A stretch of 32,903 nt of DNA from Patescibacteria group bacterium (GTDB lineage Bacteria > Patescibacteriota > Saccharimonadia > CAILAD01 > BJGX01), in contig SICB01000002.1 in NCBI GenBank assembly GCA_009691555.1, forward strand, positions 1 through 32,903, given 5' to 3'. The position numbers and the translations under genes are program-made. Below the pieces are notes generated by a model that saw only the letters and a list, made by a program, of their open reading frames with translations, was not told the DNA's origin and made no database searches. Below, piece after piece: positions 6,023-19,776 of the stretch; the first letter of the stretch is position 1, and every line of letters begins with the position of its first letter.

Positions 6023-8788
6023 TTACTTGAGATCTCCCCAGCTGGTACCCTGACGAACTTCGGCAATAATAGGAACCTCAAACCGCTGCACGCCCTCCAT
6101 GGCTTGCTTGATAATCTTGGCGACTTGCTCGGCATCAGCCTTGGGACATTCGGCTATCAATTCGTCATGAATTTGCAGTAGCAAGTTTGTTTGCTCTGGG
6201 GCTTTTTTGCCCTTATTAAACTGCTCGAAACTGTTGGCTATGTCGACCATCGCCAGCTTCATCATATCGGCCGCTGTACCCTGCAGGGGCAGATTAACCG
6301 CGGCGCGCTCGGCGGCGGCTCGCACTATAAAATTGCTAGAGCTGACATCTGGGCAGGGGCGGCGGCGGCCAAAAAATGTTTCGGTATAGCCTTCGTCGTG
6401 GGCAAACTTCTTAATACTAGCGATGTATGCAGCAACGCCTTTGCGCAGGCCAAAATAGCTGTCTATAAACTCGCGGGCTTTATCGTAATCAAACCCCGTA
6501 GCAACCGATAGCCCGTGGGGGTTCATACCATACAGCACACCAAAGTTGATGGTCTTGGCGGCGTAGCGCATTTCTTTGGTTACTTTTGCTGGTGCGACGC
6601 CGAACATCTCGGCAGCGGTTAGGGTGTGGATGTCAGCCCCGCTCTTAAAATCGTCGATCATGGGCTGGTCTTTAGCAAGCTCGGCTGCGAGGCGCAGCTC
6701 TATTTGGCTATAATCGGCCGAAACCAGCACCTTACCTGGGCTGGCCACAAAAGCTTTGCGTATTTCTCGACCCATCTCGCTTCGAATCGGTATATTCTGA
6801 AGGTTTGGGTTGGTACTACTGAGGCGGCCTGTCTGGGCGATGGTTTGATTGTAACTAGTGTGGATGCGGTCGTCTGGCTTGACGAGCTTTGGCAAAGCGT
6901 CGACATAGGTACTGGCGAGTTTTGTTAGCTCTCGATACTCGAACATCATATCGACCAGCTCGTGCTTGCCACGAAGTTTTTCGAGCTCACTAGCAGCAGT
7001 ACTAATGCCAGTCTTGGTTTTTTTGAGGCCGGCCGTTGGTATCTTGAGCTTCTCAAATAGCACAACCTGAAGCTGGGCTGGTGAGCTAATGTTGAATTCG
7101 CCGCCGGCTAGCTTCCAGATATCTTTTTGCAACTGATTGATTTTTGAGGCGTATTGAACCGATAGTTTATTCAAAAACTTCGAGTCTAGCTCGACCCCGC
7201 AATACTCCATATCGCCGAGCACCGCAATTAGCGGCCACTCCATTTGTTCGGCAAGTTCGGAAAGTCGCCCAATGGTCTTCAGGTCTTTTTGCAACTTCAG
7301 GTACAATCGCCAGCTAATATCGGCGTCCTCGGCGGCATACTGGCCAGCTTCTTTGATAGCAACTGCGTCAAAAGTTTGTTGGTTTTTGCCTTTTGGTCCA
7401 ATCAGCTCCTCGATACCAATCATTGATATTCCGAGCTCATTATAGGCTAGCTGGCTGAGGCTCTGGGCCCGGCCGATGGGGTTTATCAGATAAGCTGCGA
7501 CCATCGTATCGAAAACAATCGGCCCGAGTCGCAGATTGTTAAACGGACGCATCATGACATAATCGTATTTGATATTGTGCCCGACCTTACCGATAGTTTC
7601 ATCTGCTAGTATTGGACCAATCAAATCAAAAAACTTGGCGTAGTCGATTTCGGTTTTTTCGGCGTGGGCCAGCGGTACATAGTAGGCCTCGCCGGCCTTG
7701 AAGCTAAAAGATGCCCCGACTAACTCGGCGTCGATTTGGTCGGTACTAGTCGTCTCGGTATCAAAAGCAAAGACTTTTTGCTGAGACAGCTCCTTGGCCA
7801 AGGCCTGCAGCTCGGAAACTTTTGTGATGAGCTGGTACTTGGCATCTTTGAGGTGTTGGCGGTTAAACTCTGCGGCGTCATTTTTGTGTTCATCGAAGGC
7901 TTCGGTTTGGTCGTCGGTGACTTTTTTATTCGGCAGTTTGGCCAGCAGGCTCTTGAACTCGAGCTGATGAAAAAGGTCGTAGACACTTTTCTTGTCGTAC
8001 TCGTGTATAACTGCGTCCTTGAGGTCAAAATCGAGCTTCAAATCGAGCTTGATGGTCGATAAATCTTGGCTCATATAGGCACTGTCTTTACCGAGCGTCA
8101 GCTTTTTGGCTACTGCCGGCTTTATATTATTCAGGTTTTCATAAATGGTGTCTAGGTCGTGATACTGGCTTACAAGCTCGGTGGCGGTCTTGTCGCCGAT
8201 ACCAGAAACGCCCGGGATATTGTCGCTAGTATCGCCCTTGAGCGCCTTATATACAATAAACTCCTTGGGGTTAACGCCATACTTGTCGATAACGGCTTGG
8301 GTGTCATAAATAAAGGTATCGCTAAAGCCCTTGCGCATCGTAAATACCGTTGTGGCATCACTAACTAGCTGGAGCTCGTCCATATCGCCCGTCACTACTA
8401 CGACATCGACTTGGTCCTGGTACTGGGCGCTGAGTGAGCCAATGATATCGTCGGCTTCAAAGCCAGGCATCTCCAAAAGAGGAATATTGAAGGCCGCAAT
8501 TACAGCCTTGGTGGTCGGAAACTGATCGTAGAGCTCTTGATCGGCCTTTTTACGGGTGGCCTTGTACTGGTCGTACTGGTCGTGTCGAAAAGTTTTGCCC
8601 GGCGCGTCCCAGGCCACCGCGACATAATCGGGCTTGAGCTCGCGCAGTGCTAAGAGCATCATCATCGTGAAGCCATACACCGCGTTGGTCGGAGTACCAT
8701 CTTTGGTCGTCAAGTGCGGAATTGCATGGTAGCCCCTATGGACTAAGGCGTGGCCGTCGAATACAACTAGTTTTTTGCGTTTGTTCAT
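6023..8788 (-). CDS. polA: DNA polymerase I (5'-nuclease, 3'-5' exonuclease and polymerase domains)
   Basis: 921 aa. The 5'-nuclease N-terminus is LVVFDGHALVHRGYHA. Exo motifs are FAFDTETT, NIKYDYVMM and YAAEDADI. Pol motifs are DYSQIELR, RYAAKTINFGVLYG and QIHDEL. Confidence 0.97.
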   Translation of the reverse strand: MNKRKKLVVFDGHALVHRGYHAIPHLTTKDGTPTNAVYGFTMMMLLALRELKPDYVAVAWDAPGKTFRHDQYDQYKATRKKADQELYDQFPTTKAVIAAFNIPLLEMPGFEADDIIGSLSAQYQDQVDVVVVTGDMDELQLVSDATTVFTMRKGFSDTFIYDTQAVIDKYGVNPKEFIVYKALKGDTSDNIPGVSGIGDKTATELVSQYHDLDTIYENLNNIKPAVAKKLTLGKDSAYMSQDLSTIKLDLKLDFDLKDAVIHEYDKKSVYDLFHQLEFKSLLAKLPNKKVTDDQTEAFDEHKNDAAEFNRQHLKDAKYQLITKVSELQALAKELSQQKVFAFDTETTSTDQIDAELVGASFSFKAGEAYYVPLAHAEKTEIDYAKFFDLIGPILADETIGKVGHNIKYDYVMMRPFNNLRLGPIVFDTMVAAYLINPIGRAQSLSQLAYNELGISMIGIEELIGPKGKNQQTFDAVAIKEAGQYAAEDADISWRLYLKLQKDLKTIGRLSELAEQMEWPLIAVLGDMEYCGVELDSKFLNKLSVQYASKINQLQKDIWKLAGGEFNISSPAQLQVVLFEKLKIPTAGLKKTKTGISTAASELEKLRGKHELVDMMFEYRELTKLASTYVDALPKLVKPDDRIHTSYNQTIAQTGRLSSTNPNLQNIPIRSEMGREIRKAFVASPGKVLVSADYSQIELRLAAELAKDQPMIDDFKSGADIHTLTAAEMFGVAPAKVTKEMRYAAKTINFGVLYGMNPHGLSVATGFDYDKAREFIDSYFGLRKGVAAYIASIKKFAHDEGYTETFFGRRRPCPDVSSSNFIVRAAAERAAVNLPLQGTAADMMKLAMVDIANSFEQFNKGKKAPEQTNLLLQIHDELIAECPKADAEQVAKIIKQAMEGVQRFEVPIIAEVRQGTSWGDLK

Positions 8789-15083: not shown

Positions 15084-16406
15084 ATGAAAAAGACAATCAA
15101 AAAAATTGTTCAGCCAATAATTCCAAAGTCGTTGATCAACTTTTTTCACTTCTCGGAGTCGATTGCTGCGGCCCAGAAATACCAGCACCCAAGCAACAAG
15201 ATGATTGTGATTGGGTTGGTTGGTAGTAAGGGCAAAACCACGACTGCCAATATGCTGTGGTCGATTTTGAGTGCCGAAGGCCATAAGGTCGGGCTTATCG
15301 GTACCGCCAATATTCGCTTTGGCCAAAAGGAAGAGCTAAATCATTATCATATGACTATGCCGGGGGCCTTTGTGCTTCAAGGATTACTGGCAAAAATGTC
15401 GGCTATGCACTGTCAATATGTAGTTATGGAAGTGCCATCGGAGGGTCAAACCCAACACCGGCATGTTGGTATCAATTTTGATGTATTGATATTTACCAAT
15501 GTCACCAATGAGCTAATGGCGGCCCATGGCTATAGTATCGACACCCTGCACAAGCACAACAAGCGTGTCTTTAAGCGGCTTAACCACTCTAAACGCAAAA
15601 CTATCGGCTTGCAAAAGATTGCAAAGATAATTGTCGCCAACGCTGACAGTAAAGATGCGCCTGACTACCTGCTGTTTCAGGCTGACAAGAAAATTACTTT
15701 TGGTCGGTCCAAAGATGCCGATTTTAGAATCAGCAATATTGCTCAAATTCCAGATAAAATTAGTTTTGATGTTAATGGTGATAATTACACTACCAAAATA
15801 CTCGGTAAAATAAACGCCATTAATGCAACCGGTGCTATCGCTACGGCTGTTGCGCTTGGTATTAGCGACAGATCTATCAAACAAGGACTGGCCAAGCTCC
15901 CCACCATCCCGGGCCGTATGGAAGTAATCGAGAGCAAGCAGCCCTTCGCTGTGGTGGTCGATTACGCCCATGAGCAAGCCAGCATGACCGCACTGATGGA
16001 CAGTGCGCGCGATATGATACCCAAAGGTGCCAAGGTTATTACCCTTTTGGGTGCCGAGGGTGGCGGACGAGATAGTGCCAAACGCCCCGAAATGGGCGCA
16101 ATCTGCGCCAAGGGCTCGGACATAATAATACTTAGTAATGTTGACCCCTACGATGACGATCCTGAAACAATCCTTGCTGATATCGCGGAGGGGGCGCTTG
16201 GGGCTGGTGCCGAAAAAAATAAGACTATGTTTATTGTCCCCGACCGCCGCGAAGGTATTCGTAAGGCCCTAGAGCTAGCTAGCAAAGACGACATAGTACT
16301 AATTACCGGCAAAGGTGCCGAACAGTCGATGGAAATTGGCGGCCAGTCGATAGCTTGGGATGACAGAAAAGTTGTCCGCGAAGAGCTGGCAAAATTAGTC
16401 GGTTAA
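15084..16406 (+). CDS. Mur ligase family protein, MurE-like, with a short N-terminal domain
   Basis: The P-loop is GLVGSKGKTTTANM. VVVDYAHE and GAEGGGRDSAKRPEMG match Mur ligase central and C-terminal motifs. The position of the MurE DNPR motif reads NVDPY. Confidence 0.8.
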   Translation: MKKTIKKIVQPIIPKSLINFFHFSESIAAAQKYQHPSNKMIVIGLVGSKGKTTTANMLWSILSAEGHKVGLIGTANIRFGQKEELNHYHMTMPGAFVLQGLLAKMSAMHCQYVVMEVPSEGQTQHRHVGINFDVLIFTNVTNELMAAHGYSIDTLHKHNKRVFKRLNHSKRKTIGLQKIAKIIVANADSKDAPDYLLFQADKKITFGRSKDADFRISNIAQIPDKISFDVNGDNYTTKILGKINAINATGAIATAVALGISDRSIKQGLAKLPTIPGRMEVIESKQPFAVVVDYAHEQASMTALMDSARDMIPKGAKVITLLGAEGGGRDSAKRPEMGAICAKGSDIIILSNVDPYDDDPETILADIAEGALGAGAEKNKTMFIVPDRREGIRKALELASKDDIVLITGKGAEQSMEIGGQSIAWDDRKVVREELAKLVG

Positions 16407-16503
16407 GCTTTACTGCTACCCTCTAGATGTAAACAGTGCTGGGCACATCCCCACCATTGAGATAAAAAATAAAAAGATCAGCCCTTATTTGTCCTTACAA
16501 TAT

Positions 16504-16531
16504 GCCCAACGTGTGTACTTGGCACGTCATT
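16504..16531. repeat. left copy of the 28-bp perfect inverted repeat
   Basis: gcccaacgtgtgtacttggcacgtcatt is the exact reverse complement of 18577-18604. Confidence 0.9.
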
Positions 16532-16554
16532 AACACTCGTGGTTACGGTACGCC

Positions 16555-17148
16555 CTAATTACTAATTTTTCTAGCGATAATATCAAAAACATGCCAATGT
16601 TTTGGATTTCCATCCGCTGTTTTACCTTCAAATTCTTTTACGTCAAATAGTATCACATTCATATCGCCGAGCATCAATTGCGCTTCTTCTTTTGTAACAA
16701 AAGTCAGATTTTTATTCAGATGCCATTCATCACGATTTCCAAAAAATTGCCCACAAAAAATTCCATTTTTAACTAGAGATTTTTTTATACCTTCAAACAC
16801 GCCAGTAAACTTACTGGAATGGATAAATGGCAATGAGTATATAGCCGCGGCTACGTCATACTCATTTTGAGGAAAATCAAAATCAGCAAAATCGGTGCGG
16901 AAAAATTTCAGCTCGTTTGATTTAATATTTTGAACAGAGTCCTCCACTGCTTTCTCTTTATCAATAATCGTTGTTTCAAAGCCCTGAGAAAGTAAATATT
17001 TAGTGTCTTTCAATGTACCTCCACCGCCAATATCTATTGCTTTATTTTTGACTTTAACATACTCCATGGCTTTAACGAGTAATGGAGCCGGAGGATAGCT
17101 CTTTGTATTCTCAAAATAATTTTCCCAATCAATTGATTTGTTATTCAT
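16555..17148 (-). CDS. class I SAM-dependent methyltransferase (TehB-like size and motifs)
   Basis: I trimmed the start to MNNKSIDW (ATG at 17148), because the tracked N-terminal extension runs through the upstream terminator hairpin. Motif I is AIDIGGGGTLKD. The gene is about 33% GC in the two 60-nt rows I counted, versus about 50% in the neighbours. Confidence 0.75.
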   Translation of the reverse strand: MNNKSIDWENYFENTKSYPPAPLLVKAMEYVKVKNKAIDIGGGGTLKDTKYLLSQGFETTIIDKEKAVEDSVQNIKSNELKFFRTDFADFDFPQNEYDVAAAIYSLPFIHSSKFTGVFEGIKKSLVKNGIFCGQFFGNRDEWHLNKNLTFVTKEEAQLMLGDMNVILFDVKEFEGKTADGNPKHWHVFDIIARKISN

Positions 17149-17170
17149 GTAGATTATTATAACAAAAATT

Positions 17171-17214
17171 AAAAAAAATCCTACACAGTATACAATGATG
17201 TATACTGTGTAGGA
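17171..17214 (-). terminator. strong rho-independent terminator after the 27-aa peptide gene
   Basis: Perfect 16-bp stem tcctacacagtataca (17179-17194) with tgtatactgtgtagga (17199-17214) and a 4-nt loop. A8 at 17171-17178 gives U8 downstream on the minus strand. Confidence 0.8.
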
Positions 17215-17232
17215 TAGCACTACGGTCACAGG

Positions 17233-17316
17233 TTACGTTGTGCAGCCCTGACAGGATGCGCATTTCGCGGAGTAAAGCTTCTCAGCGATGCGCTTAATTC
17301 GTTCCTGACGTGTCAT
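17233..17316 (-). CDS. 27-aa Cys-rich peptide MTRQERIKRIAEKLYSAKCASCQGCTT (candidate RiPP precursor)
   Basis: Not in the ORF track because it is too short. ATG is at 17316 and TAA at 17233-17235. SD AAGGAGGTGAT lies 4 nt before the ATG. It is 35 nt downstream of the oxygenase stop and 18 nt upstream of the terminator hairpin. Confidence 0.5.
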   Translation of the reverse strand: MTRQERIKRIAEKLYSAKCASCQGCTT

Positions 17317-17351
17317 TTCTATCACCTCCTTCTTTCTGGGATCGTGCGGGT

Positions 17352-18008
17352 TCATACGTACTGTATAAAAACCCTGAGCTGTAAACGCCTACTCGACGGA
17401 TCAAGCTGATCGCGTCCATGAAGCATTACGAAGTTATCGAACCAGATTGCCTGACCAGCCTTGAGCTTAAAAGACAAAAATCTTTTCTCACTCCGTCGGA
17501 TCAACAGTACCTCGTTGAAGCGTTTGATCGCGGTCACTTGGGAATCATTGAGCTTGTCTAGATTCACGAGGGCGAACGCTGGCAGCCAGTAAACGTGCGG
17601 TGGTCGACCTTCTTCTACGGTCAACAGCGGGAGCCGATCTTCACTGCGTGGCAAGGGTATCTGAACACTTTTCAAGTCCTCAACCTCTAGCAGAGAAAGC
17701 TCTCCCAGTATGTCACGAGTATCAATCAGCAGATTCTCTCCACCACCCAGATTATCCACCTCTTCACAAAACAAGCCCACAACGTTCGCTAGCGGATAAT
17801 CTGTATGAAACGGAACCTCATCCGGTAAGTGGGAGTACCCGGTGTATTTTTCCACCGTTTCTTTGGGTTTGAGGAAAATTTCCCTGGTTTGAGTAACCTT
17901 GCCAAGTTCGTTACAAATTGCCAAGTAGTTTTCCCTGTCGCCGACATCGGCGATAACGTACCTGTTCAGATCGAGACAGCTACGGATATTCAATACGCTA
18001 GGTTTCAT
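17352..18008 (-). CDS. TauD/TfdA-family Fe(II)/2-oxoglutarate-dependent oxygenase
   Basis: The HxD motif is in VPFHTDYP. The distal His and Arg are in FDNFVMLHGRD. I prefer the ATG at 18008 (GAGG 9 nt upstream) over the tracked GTG at 18023. It overlaps the upstream gene by 11 nt. Confidence 0.75.
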   Translation of the reverse strand: MKPSVLNIRSCLDLNRYVIADVGDRENYLAICNELGKVTQTREIFLKPKETVEKYTGYSHLPDEVPFHTDYPLANVVGLFCEEVDNLGGGENLLIDTRDILGELSLLEVEDLKSVQIPLPRSEDRLPLLTVEEGRPPHVYWLPAFALVNLDKLNDSQVTAIKRFNEVLLIRRSEKRFLSFKLKAGQAIWFDNFVMLHGRDQLDPSSRRLQLRVFIQYV

Positions 18009-18498
18009 GATGCACCGCCTCACAGGGTTGATCGAAAAGTCTCGGTTTCTGAAGCTTGACGAGCACTTCGGCTGAGTATCTTACGGAATATTCTTCATAC
18101 CACCTGATCATCGTGTCCTCGCCGACTACTTCGCAGATGTAGTTCAGTTGCAACTCAGTTTCTTCGCGACTGGGTGGTTGGAAGTCGGGTGCGCCCGGGG
18201 AATGATGAATGAAGGTCCCCAGATACTCCTTACAGAATTGCTCGTAGTCGCGCGTATGGAGGACGAAGGTGTGCCAATATTCATCGACAACCACCATCCC
18301 CGAATGGATGACCAGAATACGCGGGATGTCTTCGTGATTTTGCGAGCGATCTTGCTTCAGTCGGGCATTGAGCCATAACCACTTAAGTGCCTCTAAGGCG
18401 ATTTCCTGCGCCTCGGGCAATGAGACCGCATACAATACTCTGAACTGGTTAAGTACTCGGTCGTTCTTATAGTTCAAGGCTTCCTCGAGACTACGCAT
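17998..18498 (-). CDS. hypothetical His-rich protein, possibly DUF1399/GRDP-like
   Basis: I trimmed the start to MRSLEEAL (ATG at 18498, SD AAGGAG 5 nt upstream). The motif VVDEYWHTFVLHTRDYEQFCKEYLGTFIHHSP resembles the D-x2-WH-x-H-x-L-x3-Y-x3-C...HH-P pattern I recall for glycine-rich-domain-containing-protein-like families. That is recollection only. Confidence 0.6.
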   Translation of the reverse strand: MRSLEEALNYKNDRVLNQFRVLYAVSLPEAQEIALEALKWLWLNARLKQDRSQNHEDIPRILVIHSGMVVVDEYWHTFVLHTRDYEQFCKEYLGTFIHHSPGAPDFQPPSREETELQLNYICEVVGEDTMIRWYEEYSVRYSAEVLVKLQKPRLFDQPCEAVHHET

Positions 18499-18549
18499 GT
18501 TCACTCCTTCCTGGAGTTTATTGAGATTGTTAATGTACACTAAAAACAC

Positions 18550-18578
18550 AGATTACCAGAAGGTGACCTTTTTATCAA
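18550..18578 (-). promoter_or_regulatory. sigma70-like promoter for the islet operon, TTGATA-17nt-TAATCT on the minus strand
   Basis: The minus-strand -35 TTGATA is plus-strand tatcaa at 18573-18578 and overlaps the inner end of the right inverted repeat. The -10 TAATCT is plus-strand agatta at 18550-18555. The spacer is 17 nt. Confidence 0.4.
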
Positions 18579-18604
18579 TGACGTGCCAAGTACACACGTT
18601 GGGC
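18577..18604. repeat. right copy of the 28-bp perfect inverted repeat
   Basis: aatgacgtgccaagtacacacgttgggc is the exact reverse complement of 16504-16531. Its outer 5 nt (tgggc, 18600-18604) are already part of the Mur-ligase-tail homology. Confidence 0.9.
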
Positions 18605-18907
18605 GCAATCTGCGCCAAGGGCTCGGACATAATAATACTTAGTAATGTTGACCCCTACGAAGACGATCCTGAAACAATCCTTGCTGATATCGCTGAGGGG
18701 GCGCTTGGGGCTGGTGCCGAAAAAAATAAGAGTATGTTTATTGTCCCCGACCGCCGCGAAGGTATTCGCAAAGCCTTGCAGTTGGCCCAAAAAGACGACT
18801 TGGTGCTAATTACCGGCAAGGGTGCCGAACAGTCGATGGAAATTGGCGGCCAGTCGATAGCTTGGGATGATAGAAAAGTTGTCCGCGAAGAGCTATTGAA
18901 GCTTTAA
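18600..18907 (+). pseudogene. displaced 3' fragment of the Mur ligase gene (about 102 codons)
   Basis: It encodes GAICAKGSDIIILSNVDPYEDDPETILADIAEGALGAGAEKNKSMFIVPDRREGIRKALQLAQKDDLVLITGKGAEQSMEIGGQSIAWDDRKVVREELLKL. That is nearly identical to the C-terminus of the 15084-16406 product. It lacks the ATPase domain. Confidence 0.8.
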
Positions 18908-19776
18908 GTTTTTTTACTCAAATCTCTAACCGCGACCGGGCACAAGCCATTGTGCAACTTATCGCAAGCTTTGCAGCAAATAAATAGCTGGTGACAGTCT
19001 GGCTTGGCGCAGTCGATGTAGCGATCGCTAGATTTTTGACAGTGCGCGCATTGGCCCAGTACTTGCTGGCCACTCTCGGTATCGCCATTGGTTATCATGC
19101 GCTCATCAAACACAAAGTTTTTGCCCTTAAAGTACCCGTCAGGATAGTGCTCGAGGTACTTTGCTATTCCGCCTTCAAGCTGATAAACATCCGTAAAACC
19201 CTCCTCGGCAAGTAGTGCAGTGGCTTTTTCGCAGCGGATCCCCCCGGTGCAGTATGTAACGACTTTTTTGGTTTTATCGATCTTGAGGTTTTTGATTTTT
19301 TTGGGAAGCTCATAAAACTTGACCGTGTCTGGTTGTATCGCACCATCAAACCGCCCAACCTCGTATTCATAATTATTGCGCATATCCACCACCACCATAT
19401 CTTCGCCCTTTTCAAATAGCCGATGCATTGCTTTAGGCGTTAGGTATTGGCCGGTTTTTTTCATATCGACTTTTTTGCCGAGGGTCACTATCTCGGGCCG
19501 ATACTTGACTATCATTTTTGGAAAAGGCATTTTACCAGCCGGGGTACGCTTAAATGCGATGCCTCCAAAGCTCGGGTGGGCGTTCATATACTCGACATAC
19601 TGCCTGAGCTCGGAGCGACTTCCGGCCACGGTACCATTAATTCCCTCTTCACTAATTAAAATACGGCCCTTCAAGCCGATGCCATTACAGACTAGCTTGT
19701 GCTGAGTGGTTTCGAACTTCGGGTCGCTGATATCTACGAATTTATAATAAAGTAGTACAAAAATGTTATTCGACAT
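18904..19776 (-). CDS. trhO: rhodanese-domain protein of the UPF0176/YceA family (tRNA uridine(34) hydroxylase TrhO-like)
   Basis: The N-terminus is VLLYYKFVDISDP. The rhodanese active-site loop is YCTGGIRCEKA. A Cys-rich C-terminal tail is present. Confidence 0.8.
   Translation of the reverse strand: MSNNIFVLLYYKFVDISDPKFETTQHKLVCNGIGLKGRILISEEGINGTVAGSRSELRQYVEYMNAHPSFGGIAFKRTPAGKMPFPKMIVKYRPEIVTLGKKVDMKKTGQYLTPKAMHRLFEKGEDMVVVDMRNNYEYEVGRFDGAIQPDTVKFYELPKKIKNLKIDKTKKVVTYCTGGIRCEKATALLAEEGFTDVYQLEGGIAKYLEHYPDGYFKGKNFVFDERMITNGDTESGQQVLGQCAHCQKSSDRYIDCAKPDCHQLFICCKACDKLHNGLCPVAVRDLSKKT

What the first reader, a model, noticed from the sequence alone, without database searches (positions are those of the whole stretch)
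16504..18604. Perfect 28-bp inverted repeat brackets exactly the cargo genes
gcccaacgtgtgtacttggcacgtcatt (16504-16531) is the exact reverse complement of 18577-18604. Identity stops abruptly on both sides. The right copy touches the duplicated Mur-tail homology, sharing tgggc. The left copy lies 97 nt past the ligase stop and 23 nt past the methyltransferase stop.

A perfect 28-bp match 2 kb apart is not expected by chance. Possible readings:
- Terminal inverted repeats of a non-autonomous, cargo-carrying transposon-like element.
- Recombinase arm sites. In a circular form they would flank the att/Mur-tail segment.
- Substrates for inversion of the whole cassette.

The predicted operon promoter -35 overlaps the inner edge of the right repeat.
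Basis: seen in the sequence. Interest (0 to 1): 0.65.

Follow-up and report, generated by a model that had tools for sequence, protein, structure and literature searches.

The report
Inverted-repeat ends of an imported gene cassette
The two perfect 28-base mirror-image repeats are real and arrived as the ends of a small four-gene cassette that moves between very distantly related ultra-small bacteria, but the duplicated Mur-ligase tail beside them comes from ordinary recombination between strains, and nothing suggests that the segment flips.

Summary
The 28-mer at 16504-16531 is the exact reverse complement of 18577-18604, and it occurs nowhere else in the 511-kb genome.

- **The repeats belong to the imported cassette, not to the host.** The cassette encodes a PF27765 protein, a TauD dioxygenase, a 27-aa Cys peptide and a SAM methyltransferase.
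  - The nearest copy sits in a host whose TyrRS is only 42% identical, yet the cassette DNA is 91% identical. It carries the same 28-mer (27/28) at its downstream end.
  - Two unplaced metagenome contigs carry it (25-26/28) at the upstream end.
  - More distant copies (83-89% DNA identity) lack it, and for the closest of these homology stops at the repeats' inner edges.
- **The Mur-tail duplication is a separate event.** Tail A belongs to a G005-like haplotype and tail B to a G001-like one. The right repeat meets tail B at a 5-nt microhomology (TGGGC). Two further murE partial duplications with 4-6-nt microhomology junctions exist at this locus.
- **Population data.** Empty-site alleles coexist with filled ones in three public runs. 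No inverted orientation was seen in 16 runs.
- **Missing parts.** I found no transposase, no matching IS or MITE in more than 500 genomes, and no short target duplication.

Best reading (about 0.5): these are the terminal repeats of a non-autonomous cargo element resembling a mobile insertion cassette. Here it is truncated and is gained or lost through tail homology.

The parts
16504..16531 (.). Left 28-bp inverted repeat, at the downstream end of the cassette. Its outer flank CAATAT resembles the flank seen in other hosts (GTATTC in L046; TAC, i.e. GTA on the other strand, in L043/L044).
   Evidence: The same 28-mer (27/28) follows the methyltransferase gene in L046 and L071.
18577..18604 (.). 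Right 28-bp inverted repeat, at the upstream end of the cassette. The inner 2 nt form part of the -35 hexamer. The outer 5 nt (TGGGC) are shared with murE and form the junction to tail B.
   Evidence: Copies matching 25-26 of 28 lie upstream of the promoter in L043 and L044.
16532..18576 (-). Horizontally mobile four-gene cassette running from promoter to terminator. GC is 43.6%; the methyltransferase part is only 33.8%.
   Evidence: DNA homology to L023 covers exactly 18576..16530 and to L046 covers 18586..16499. The same module sits in different contexts in Doudna-, Colwell- and Saccharibacteria MAGs. GC values.
17998..18498 (-). Gene 1: 166-aa PF27765 (UCP032817-like) protein.
   Evidence: Pfam family precomputed for homologues. 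No hit in my own Pfam scan.
17352..18008 (-). Gene 2: TauD/TfdA-family Fe(II)/2-oxoglutarate dioxygenase, 218 aa.
   Evidence: PF02668, E = 1.3e-11; homologues.
17233..17316 (-). Gene 3: 27-aa peptide MTRQERIKRIAEKLYSAKCASCQGCTT, a possible precursor peptide.
   Evidence: The peptide C-terminus is conserved in L042 and L047.
17178..17215 (-). Perfect 17-bp-stem terminator hairpin followed by a T-run, lying between the peptide and methyltransferase genes.
16555..17148 (-). Gene 4: SAM-dependent methyltransferase, 197 aa, low GC.
   Evidence: P0026.
16093..16387 (+). murE tail A, part of the intact murE gene (15084-16406). It belongs to the G005-like haplotype.
   Evidence: It is 91.5% identical to G005 against 86.4% to G001; in the divergent patch the figures are 92% and 75%.
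18600..18894 (+). murE tail B, the displaced copy. It belongs to the G001-like haplotype and overlaps the TrhO-like gene's stop, as in empty-site genomes.
   Evidence: The A/B differences cluster at 16262-16313.
16423..16461 (-). Remnant (last 12 codons plus stop) of the 820-aa gene that G005 and G003 carry between murE and the TrhO-like gene.
16462..16503 (.). A/T-rich orphan stretch between the 820-aa-gene remnant and the left repeat. No relative was found.
18904..19776 (-). Right-flank host gene: TrhO-like rhodanese protein (UPF0176).

Best explanation
The two 28-mers are the inner 28 bases of the terminal inverted repeats of a roughly 2.1-kb non-autonomous cargo element. In the ancestor these repeats were probably 30-33 bp long. 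The element is a promoter-to-terminator four-gene cassette that has recently crossed between very distant Patescibacteria.

**Origin (inferred).** An older, repeat-less version of the cassette became enclosed between the two arms, in the way a passenger gene replaces the transposase of an insertion sequence. The resulting arm-cassette-arm unit then moved as one piece. The likely agent is an enzyme supplied in trans, which I did not find.

**History in this genus.**
1. The unit replaced most of an 820-aa gene downstream of murE in a G005-like genome.
2. It then entered a G001-like 'empty' strain by one-sided homologous recombination in the murE tail, plus an illegitimate join at a TGGGC microhomology between the outer end of the upstream repeat and murE codon ~337. 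This could be homology-facilitated illegitimate recombination, or Campbell-type integration of a circle.
3. That join duplicated the 295-nt tail and trimmed the outermost bases of the right repeat.

**Today.** The 2507-bp unit is gained and lost in the population by homologous recombination between the two tails. The repeats themselves are probably inert in this host.

**Shown:** the repeat, its unique association with the cassette lineage, horizontal transfer, the junction anatomy and the presence/absence polymorphism.

**Inferred:** that the repeats are enzyme-recognised ends, the order of events, and the uptake route.
For: 1. **The repeats bracket exactly the transferable DNA.**
   - Homology to L023 (88.8%) runs 18576..16530, ending at the inner edges of the repeats.
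   - Homology to the nearest copy, L046 (90.9%), runs through the downstream 28-mer and ends 5 nt beyond it.
2. **The 28-mer is tied to the closest cassette lineage.**
   - L046 and L071 have it downstream, 27/28.
   - L043 and L044 have it upstream of the promoter, 25-26/28. Their contigs start exactly 30 nt (k-1 for Logan's k = 31) outside the inner repeat edge. That is what a repeat of at least 30 nt present in both orientations would produce (inference).
   - L023, L026, L030, L033, L034 and L035 lack it.
3. **Transfer is recent and crosses deep lineages.** TyrRS of the L046 host is 42% identical to that of this genome, while the cassette DNA is 91% identical.
4. **No mobilising gene lies nearby.** There is none inside the cassette or within the 33-kb window.
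5. **The tail duplication is recombinational.**
   - Tail A is G005-like and carries the 3' remnant of G005's 820-aa gene. Tail B is G001-like and joins the TrhO-like gene as in empty genomes.
   - The A/B differences are clustered.
   - Three independent murE partial duplications have microhomology junctions: TGGGC here, CGCGCG in X12/L066 and CAGC in G003.
6. **Presence/absence polymorphism.** Empty-site contigs ('skips 2507') occur alongside cassette contigs in runs X10, X11 and X15.
7. **The structure is reproducible.** It appears in 16 runs from 11 studies and in JGI and ENA contigs.
Against: - **No enzyme and no autonomous partner.** The 26-28-mer (up to 3 mismatches) is absent from 32 family-level, 60 order-level and 401 class-level genomes and from four other cassette hosts. 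Exact 23-24-mers are absent from the GTDB genomes and the JGI metagenomes, and the degenerate 23-mer is absent from IMG/VR. Plasmid and phage collections gave only chance hits.
- **No short target-site duplication** in the window (flanks CAATAT and GCAATC).
- **Few contexts.** I saw only two host contexts with the repeat.
- **L046 is incomplete.** Its upstream arm is mostly missing, and its flanks are ~90-nt direct repeats of a tRNA-Tyr-like 3' half. That could point to a site-specific integrase rather than a transposase.
- **The outer limit of the repeat is uncertain.** On the right it is set by the junction. The claim that the repeat ends mark the element's ends therefore rests mainly on the L046 downstream junction and on the contig ends of L043 and L044.
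Confidence: 0.5

Rival explanations
1. The arms are recombination sites rather than transposon ends. They would be the two halves of a long hairpin site split by cassette insertion, or mirrored attachment sites. A Xer-like tyrosine recombinase or a large serine recombinase supplied in trans would act on them, in the manner of integron, pdif-module or recombinase-mediated cassette-exchange systems.
For: - The module is flanked by inverted 28-bp sites, the arrangement and length seen for pdif modules (from my own knowledge).
- The genome has one Xer-like recombinase.
- Large serine recombinases sit next to tRNA genes in same-genus genomes G001 and G005 and in the other cassette host G048.
- In L046 the cassette starts 3 nt after the CCA end of a tRNA-Tyr-like gene and is followed by a second copy of that gene's 3' half.
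- Earlier unchecked notes of this scan describe repeat-bracketed cassettes in Patescibacteria.
Against: - The 28-mer has only a 5-bp dyad (ACGTG N9 CACGT) centred on a single base. That is unlike the 11-6-11 layout of dif or sites with a 2-bp crossover (read directly from the sequence).
- No related site exists elsewhere in the genome at up to 8 mismatches, and none lies beside the Xer gene.
- No 28-mer-like sequence lies near the serine recombinases examined.
- No cassette array and no integron-type recombinase is present at either locus.
- No inverted orientation was seen.
Confidence: 0.2
2. The arms are a passive relic. An older, repeat-less cassette was inserted by illegitimate recombination into the loop of a long palindrome (a hairpin or fragile site) in some earlier host. 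The arms have simply been carried along since, and no enzyme recognises them.
For: - Homology to repeat-less cassettes stops exactly at both inner edges.
- Long perfect palindromes with 17-bp stems are common in these genomes.
- All junctions that can be read in this genus are microhomology joins, not enzyme-type joins.
Against: - It does not explain why DNA shared between two hosts with 42%-identical TyrRS ends within 5 nt of the arm's outer end.
- It does not explain why L043 and L044 break at the position expected for an arm of at least 30 nt.
- No uninterrupted palindrome of this sequence was found in more than 500 genomes or in the three collections.
Confidence: 0.12
3. The element transposed directly into murE, and the transposase itself created the long Mur-tail duplication, as IS1634 and IS1549 do (direct repeats of 8-514 bp).
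For: - IS1634-family elements make long, variable direct repeats (PMC2266710).
- In L046, direct repeats of about 90 nt abut both ends of the cassette.
Against: - In the window the left repeat is 116 nt away from tail A.
- The two tails are different population haplotypes (G005-like and G001-like) with a clustered 29%-divergent patch.
- Equivalent murE duplications occur without the repeats, in X12 and G003.
- No IS1634-like gene was found in the window; I did not search the rest of the genome for DDE transposases.
Confidence: 0.07
4. The repeats are the substrates of an inversion switch that flips the 2.1-kb segment.
For: The only support is the geometry: perfect inverted repeats about 2 kb apart.
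Against: - No opposite-orientation contig or strand-changing joint was seen in 16 runs. Logan's k = 31 exceeds 28, so both orientations would assemble.
- There is no invertase gene in the window, and no serine recombinase in the assembled genome.
- The operon's promoter lies inside the segment, so flipping would not switch it.
Confidence: 0.03
5. The repeat is a one-off local rearrangement scar or an assembly artefact of this MAG.
For: The right repeat touches a recombination junction.
Against: - The 28-mer, including its outer TGGGC, is present in another host that has no murE nearby.
- The arrangement recurs in independent assemblies from many studies.
Confidence: 0.02

Closest known systems
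Mobile insertion cassettes (MICs, e.g. MIC231 derived from IS231 in Bacillus cereus; the qnrD and qnrS2 MICs)
   Same: Passenger genes are enclosed by perfect or near-perfect terminal inverted repeats. No transposase lies inside. The element is found in unrelated hosts, and the transferable DNA ends at the repeats.
   Different: No cognate insertion sequence with these ends was found. There is no short target duplication. The cargo is a four-gene operon with its own promoter and terminator. The present copy was placed by homologous plus microhomology recombination, and one end is trimmed.
pdif modules of Acinetobacter plasmids (gene modules between inverted 28-bp XerC/XerD sites)
   Same: A discrete gene module lies between two inverted 28-bp sites, and a Xer-type recombinase is present in the genome.
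   Different: The 28-mer lacks the 11-6-11 dyad layout. There is no dif-like relative in the genome. The location is chromosomal, and there is no alternating array of sites.
Homology-facilitated illegitimate recombination in naturally transformable bacteria (described in Acinetobacter and Streptococcus; cited from my own knowledge and mentioned in PMC8116780)
   Same: There is one homologous anchor (the murE tail) and one illegitimate join at a GC-rich microhomology of 4-6 nt. Recipient sequence is duplicated, and the process recurs at the same locus (three junction types).
   Different: This explains the tail duplication and the right junction only, not the existence of the inverted repeats. 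DNA uptake by this organism is assumed, not shown.
Integrative elements that carry a replacement 3' end of their target gene (phage 21 and e14 in icd; tRNA-targeting islands)
   Same: There is a direct repeat of the target gene's 3' end, the gene stays intact, and a displaced tail is left behind.
   Different: There is no integrase. The tails are two natural alleles of the same population. The crossover is spread over the 295 nt rather than confined to a short core.
IS1634 / IS1549 (long, variable target duplications)
   Same: Long direct repeats lie next to an element bounded by inverted repeats, most clearly in L046.
   Different: In the window the repeat geometry and the haplotypes do not fit a target duplication, and no such transposase was found in the window.

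Membership tests
Non-autonomous TIR transposon / mobile insertion cassette | Terminal inverted repeats at both ends of the mobile DNA | tested here: met
   28/28 inverted repeat. Shared DNA with L046 ends 5 nt outside the downstream arm. Homology to repeat-less copies ends at the inner edges.
Non-autonomous TIR transposon / mobile insertion cassette | No transposase inside the element | tested here: met
   The four genes are a PF27765 protein, TauD, a 27-aa peptide and a methyltransferase.
Non-autonomous TIR transposon / mobile insertion cassette | Short direct target-site duplication immediately outside the repeats | tested here: not met
   The flanks are ...CAATAT | element | GCAATC.... L046 instead has ~90-nt direct repeats.
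Non-autonomous TIR transposon / mobile insertion cassette | A cognate autonomous element (transposase gene) with the same ends | tested here: not met
   No further copy in the own genome at up to 8 mismatches, in about 500 genomes at up to 3 mismatches, or in three collections as exact 23-24-mers. MAGs and exact-match scans can miss such elements.
Non-autonomous TIR transposon / mobile insertion cassette | Copies at several unrelated insertion sites | tested here: inconclusive
   Two host contexts: the murE 3' end here and a tRNA-Tyr-like locus in L046, L071 and L032. L043 and L044 are unplaced.
pdif / Xer-site module | A 28-bp site built as two ~11-bp inverted arms around a 6-bp centre and related to the host dif site | tested here: not met
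   Only ACGTG N9 CACGT is symmetric (read from the sequence). No related site in the genome or beside the Xer gene.
pdif / Xer-site module | A Xer-type recombinase is available | tested here: met
   One PF00589 protein of about 324 aa on contig C28.
Invertible DNA segment (invertase switch) | Both orientations present in the population, and an adjacent invertase | tested here: not met
   Contigs from 16 runs show one orientation only. No recombinase in the window. Contigs drop rare variants.
Integron gene cassette | An attC hairpin at one cassette end, an array next to an integron-type integrase, and usually no promoter in the cassette | tested here: not met
   Single cassette between murE and the TrhO-like gene, with its own conserved promoter. 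No integrase nearby.
Homology-facilitated illegitimate recombination / Campbell-type insertion (for the tail duplication only) | A homologous anchor on one side and a microhomology join on the other | tested here: met
   Tail haplotype mosaic. TGGGC is shared by the repeat and murE. Parallel junctions CGCGCG and CAGC.
Homology-facilitated illegitimate recombination / Campbell-type insertion (for the tail duplication only) | Reversible gain and loss through the repeats within a population | tested here: met
   Contigs that 'skip 2507' coexist with cassette contigs in X10, X11 and X15.
Homology-facilitated illegitimate recombination / Campbell-type insertion (for the tail duplication only) | Natural DNA uptake by the organism | not testable with these tools
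   Would need culture or co-culture experiments.

The most novel reading that the evidence does not exclude
The 28-33-bp arms would be the working ends of an undescribed, trans-mobilised cassette system of Patescibacteria. The system would shuttle complete promoter-to-terminator biosynthetic modules (here a candidate peptide-modification operon) between classes of ultra-small bacteria. Its circular form would carry the two arms abutted as one long palindromic site, recognised by a host Xer-like or serine recombinase or by a rarely assembled transposase.
Probability: 0.18. Interest if true: 0.7.

Novelty: new variant of a known kind. Interest (0 to 1): 0.45.

Why it matters
Gene flow in the ultra-small, host-dependent Patescibacteria is poorly understood, and few mobile elements are described for them.

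This case gives a clean, datable example. A 2.1-kb operon is shared at 91% DNA identity by hosts whose TyrRS is only 42% identical. Its ends are defined by inverted repeats. It also has a second, purely recombinational layer of spread inside one species: a homologous anchor plus a microhomology join, and loss through the resulting repeats.

If the arms turn out to be recognised by an enzyme, they would identify a new vehicle for accessory and biosynthetic genes in this phylum. If not, the locus still documents how integrase-less cassettes become installed at the 3' ends of essential genes.

Tried and rejected
**Further copies of the 28-mer. None found in any of these:**
- The own genome, allowing up to 8 mismatches.
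- Family (32), order (60) and class (401) genome sets, and four other cassette hosts.
- Exact or degenerate 23-24-mers in GTDB genomes, JGI metagenomes and IMG/VR. Near-identical records are masked in those scans.
- Plasmid and phage BLAST, which gave chance hits only.

**Other checks that led nowhere:**
- Assembly artefact: rejected.
- Inversion: no strand-changing joints were seen.
- dif-like site beside the Xer gene: none.
- Link to large serine recombinases at tRNA genes in G048, G001 and G005: no 28-mer-like sequence and no long mirrored arms there.
- Structured RNA or a terminator role for the 28-mer: no Rfam hit and no fold better than shuffles for the left copy. The right copy's z-score of -2.6 comes from the murE GC hairpin next to it.
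- Empty site for the L046 locus in relatives of its host: the region is rearranged and inverted there, so this was uninformative.
- Resemblance of the outer end (ATAYGCCCAAC) to IS231 ends, which I recalled from memory. Only the general IS4-family end consensus could be checked, and it does not fit convincingly, so I dropped the lead.
- The 42-43 nt at about 16461-16503: no relative anywhere.
Full report
**1. The observation**

GCCCAACGTGTGTACTTGGCACGTCATT at 16504-16531 is the perfect reverse complement of 18577-18604, with 2045 nt between the arms.
- These are the only two copies in the 511-kb, 39-contig genome, even allowing 8 mismatches.
  - 97 nt after the murE stop.
  - 23 nt beyond the methyltransferase stop.
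  - A 5-nt overlap (TGGGC, 18600-18604 = 16093-16097) with the 295-nt, 94%-identical direct repeat of the murE tail (16093-16387 and 18600-18894).
  - The two innermost bases of the right arm belong to a conserved -35 hexamer.
- It is not a MAG artefact.
  - One Logan contig from another study (run X3) spans 16358-18629. X1 and X4 cover the same stretch in overlapping pieces.
  - JGI and ENA contigs L062, L064 and L070 hold both perfect arms with identical flanks.

**2. What lies between the arms**

All genes are on the minus strand:
- a 166-aa PF27765 (UCP032817-like) protein;
- a 218-aa TauD-family dioxygenase;
- a 27-aa peptide ending CASCQGCTT;
- a perfect 17-bp-stem terminator;
- a low-GC 197-aa SAM methyltransferase.

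The flanks are housekeeping genes: a murE-type ligase on the left and a TrhO-like rhodanese on the right. Further out are PolA, sigma-70, DnaG and PyrH. The 33-kb window holds no recombinase or transposase.

**3. The cassette is horizontally mobile and the arms bracket exactly the mobile DNA**

- The same four-gene module occurs, at 82-94% TauD identity, in Doudnabacteria, Colwellbacteria and other Patescibacteria MAGs. More distant copies (58-65%) are in a Saccharibacteria and another Doudnabacteria MAG. Each has different neighbours.
- DNA homology to L023 (88.8%) runs 18576..16530, ending at the inner edge of each arm. L030 starts at 18578.
- None of the more distant copies has any inverted or direct repeat across its borders.
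- The nearest copy is L046/L071, with a partial copy in L032. It is 90.9% identical over 2095 nt, covering window 18586..16499.
  - It includes the downstream 28-mer (27/28) and stops 5 nt beyond it.
  - Its host is very distant: TyrRS is 42% identical, with flank GC of 53% against 46.5% here.
- Logan contigs L043 and L044 (TauD 94% identical) carry the 28-mer (25-26/28) upstream of the promoter.
  - Both contigs begin 3 nt outside the 28-mer, which is exactly 30 nt from the inner edge of the arm.
  - Thirty is k-1 for Logan's k = 31. This is where a unitig must break if the arm is present twice, in both orientations, over at least 30 nt.
  - From this I infer that the ancestral repeat is at least 30 nt. 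It would extend by TAC/GTA, which matches the GTATTC outside the L046 arm and resembles ATATTG outside the window's left arm.
- The arms are therefore a derived feature of the closest cassette lineage. They are present at both ends and travel with the cassette.

**4. The Mur-tail duplication is a different kind of event**

- G001, G002 and G004 (same genus) have the empty arrangement, in which murE overlaps the TrhO-like gene's stop.
- G005 and G003 carry an 820-aa gene between the two.
- Window 16423-16461 is the last 12 codons plus stop of that 820-aa gene. The stretch from about 16461 to 16503 is an orphan.
- The two tails are different haplotypes.
  - Tail A is G005-like: 91.5% overall, and 92% in the divergent patch.
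  - Tail B is G001-like: 90.2% overall, and 92% in the patch.
  - Fifteen of the 19 A/B differences lie in 16262-16313.
  - The tails are thus two haplotypes joined together, not a fresh target duplication.
- The right arm meets tail B at TGGGC, which belongs to both partners. L046 shows that TTGGGC is intrinsic to the 28-mer in a host with no murE nearby.
- Two more murE partial duplications with the same 'backward' geometry exist.
  - In run X12 (contig L066), cassette position 18254 is joined to murE 16012 at CGCGCG. This variant lacks the right arm and the promoter.
  - In G003, a 60-nt fragment of the TrhO-like gene is joined to murE 15936 at CAGC, with no cassette involved.
- Recurrent junctions built from a homologous anchor plus a GC-rich microhomology of 4-6 nt are the signature of two processes (established knowledge):
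  - homology-facilitated illegitimate recombination;
  - equivalently, integration of an illegitimately closed circle by a single crossover.
- The 'abrupt end' of the right arm is therefore a recombination breakpoint. It probably removed the outermost 3-5 nt of the repeat.

**5. Population data**

The stretch is held nearly identically by at least 20 public freshwater and sediment runs. I examined 16 of them, from 11 studies.
- Contigs that join 16187 to 18695 (X10), 16313 to 18821 (X11) and 16364 to 18872 (X15) skip exactly 2507 nt.
  - These are empty-site alleles of the same species. X10 shows 0 differences over 388 nt of murE.
  - They coexist with cassette contigs.
- The unit is thus polymorphic for presence and absence through the tail repeats.
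- No strand-changing joint and no alternative flank at either arm appeared.
- Logan's k = 31 exceeds 28, so both orientations would assemble. However, contigs drop rare variants, and no raw-read runs were available.

**6. What could act on the arms**

- The assembled genome (86% complete) has one Xer-like tyrosine recombinase, with no similar site beside it. It has no serine recombinase.
- Large serine recombinases sit beside tRNA genes in G001, G005 and G048. Nothing like the 28-mer lies near them.
- The 28-mer has only a 5-bp internal dyad (ACGTG N9 CACGT) and no significant fold.
- It is absent, at up to 3 mismatches, from about 500 Patescibacteria genomes, and from the three sequence collections as exact 23-24-mers. 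It is therefore not the end of a common IS or MITE.
- In L046 the cassette begins 3 nt after the CCA end of an odd tRNA-Tyr-like gene and is followed by a second copy of that gene's 3' half.
  - These are ~90-nt direct repeats, with GTATTC shared at the junction.
  - This could be a long target duplication, as IS1634 and IS1549 make (PMC2266710).
  - It could equally be an integrase-type att duplication or another microhomology event. I could not resolve it, because the locus is rearranged in relatives.

**7. Interpretation**

- **Most likely (about 0.5).** The arms are the terminal inverted repeats of a non-autonomous cargo element resembling a mobile insertion cassette. The element was formed when an older, repeat-less cassette became enclosed by them. 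It was moved between distant hosts by an enzyme supplied in trans. In this genus it was installed and spread by recombination, and here it is truncated and inert.
- **Rivals:**
  - recombinase sites or a split hairpin site (0.2);
  - a passive split palindrome (0.12);
  - long-duplication transposition (0.07);
  - an inversion switch (0.03);
  - a local scar or artefact (0.02).
- **Membership.** I cannot claim membership in the mobile-insertion-cassette class. Two defining features, a short target duplication and a cognate transposase-bearing element, were tested and not met.

**8. Novelty and verdict**

- Cargo cassettes bracketed by inverted repeats, and microhomology-assisted integration, are both known kinds.
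- New here are the combination, the host phylum, the depth of the transfer and the absence of any recognisable partner enzyme.
- I rate it a new variant of a known kind, with interest 0.45.

Noticed in passing
window 16555-18549; L047:1-5600: The cargo looks like a peptide-modification (RiPP-like) operon: a 27-aa peptide with a C-terminal CxxCxxC, a TauD hydroxylase, a methyltransferase and a PF27765 protein. In L047, two PF27765 paralogues and a partial copy of the methyltransferase lie next to a YcaO / nitroreductase cluster, which supports a RiPP role for PF27765.
   Followed up: partly
L043, L044, L045 (3' contig ends); window 17316-17340: Three independent Logan contigs of the cassette all end within a few bases of the peptide gene's ribosome-binding site. 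This suggests several peptide variants per sample, i.e. a hypervariable precursor region.
   Followed up: no
L015:2705-5167 (G005); L016:654-3116 (G003); window 16423-16461: Same-genus genomes carry an 820-aa gene of unknown function in the murE/TrhO gap. The window keeps only its last 12 codons. The gap is a hotspot: in other genera of the family (G012, G011) it measures about 390-940 nt.
   Followed up: partly
L016:28-606 (G003): G003 has its own partial murE duplication (from the equivalent of window 15936) fused to a 60-nt fragment of the TrhO-like gene at a CAGC microhomology. The contig ends right after the duplicated tail, which suggests a tandem array of hotspot cassettes.
   Followed up: partly
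L066 (= run X12 contig), window 18254 joined to 16012: A population variant in which the cassette is cut inside the PF27765 gene and joined to murE at CGCGCG. It lacks the promoter and the right repeat, and it co-occurs with the full form in the same study's samples.
   Followed up: yes
L046:4183-4556 and 6647-6736; L058, L059, L060: Next to a normal tRNA-Tyr gene, these Patescibacteria carry tRNA-Tyr-like units. They have hairpin insertions in the D and anticodon regions (intron-like) and, in some genomes, a T-arm replaced by a GC hairpin. ARAGORN does not call them.
   Followed up: partly
L075:3719-6444 (G048); L076, L077: Large serine recombinase genes sit directly beside tRNA genes (His, Gly and Pro). 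In G048, a flipped partial copy of the tRNA-His 5' part lies on the far side of the recombinase gene.
   Followed up: partly
window 16555-17151 versus 17352-18498: The methyltransferase gene has 33.8% GC against 49.1% for the two upstream genes, and it lies behind a strong terminator. Even so, the four genes keep the same spacing in all homologous loci.
   Followed up: no
window 18578-18907: The right repeat supplies an ATG in frame with the displaced murE tail, giving a 109-aa open frame that contains only the ligase C-terminal domain. The same open frame is called as a gene in L062, L064 and L070.
   Followed up: no
L046:7106-7142 and many sites in G048, G408-G410: A 17-bp-stem perfect palindrome (ACCCAGCACCACTTTTT...AAAAAGTGGTGCTGGGT) is a multicopy element, about 20 copies per genome, in the L046 host and its relatives.
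   Followed up: no
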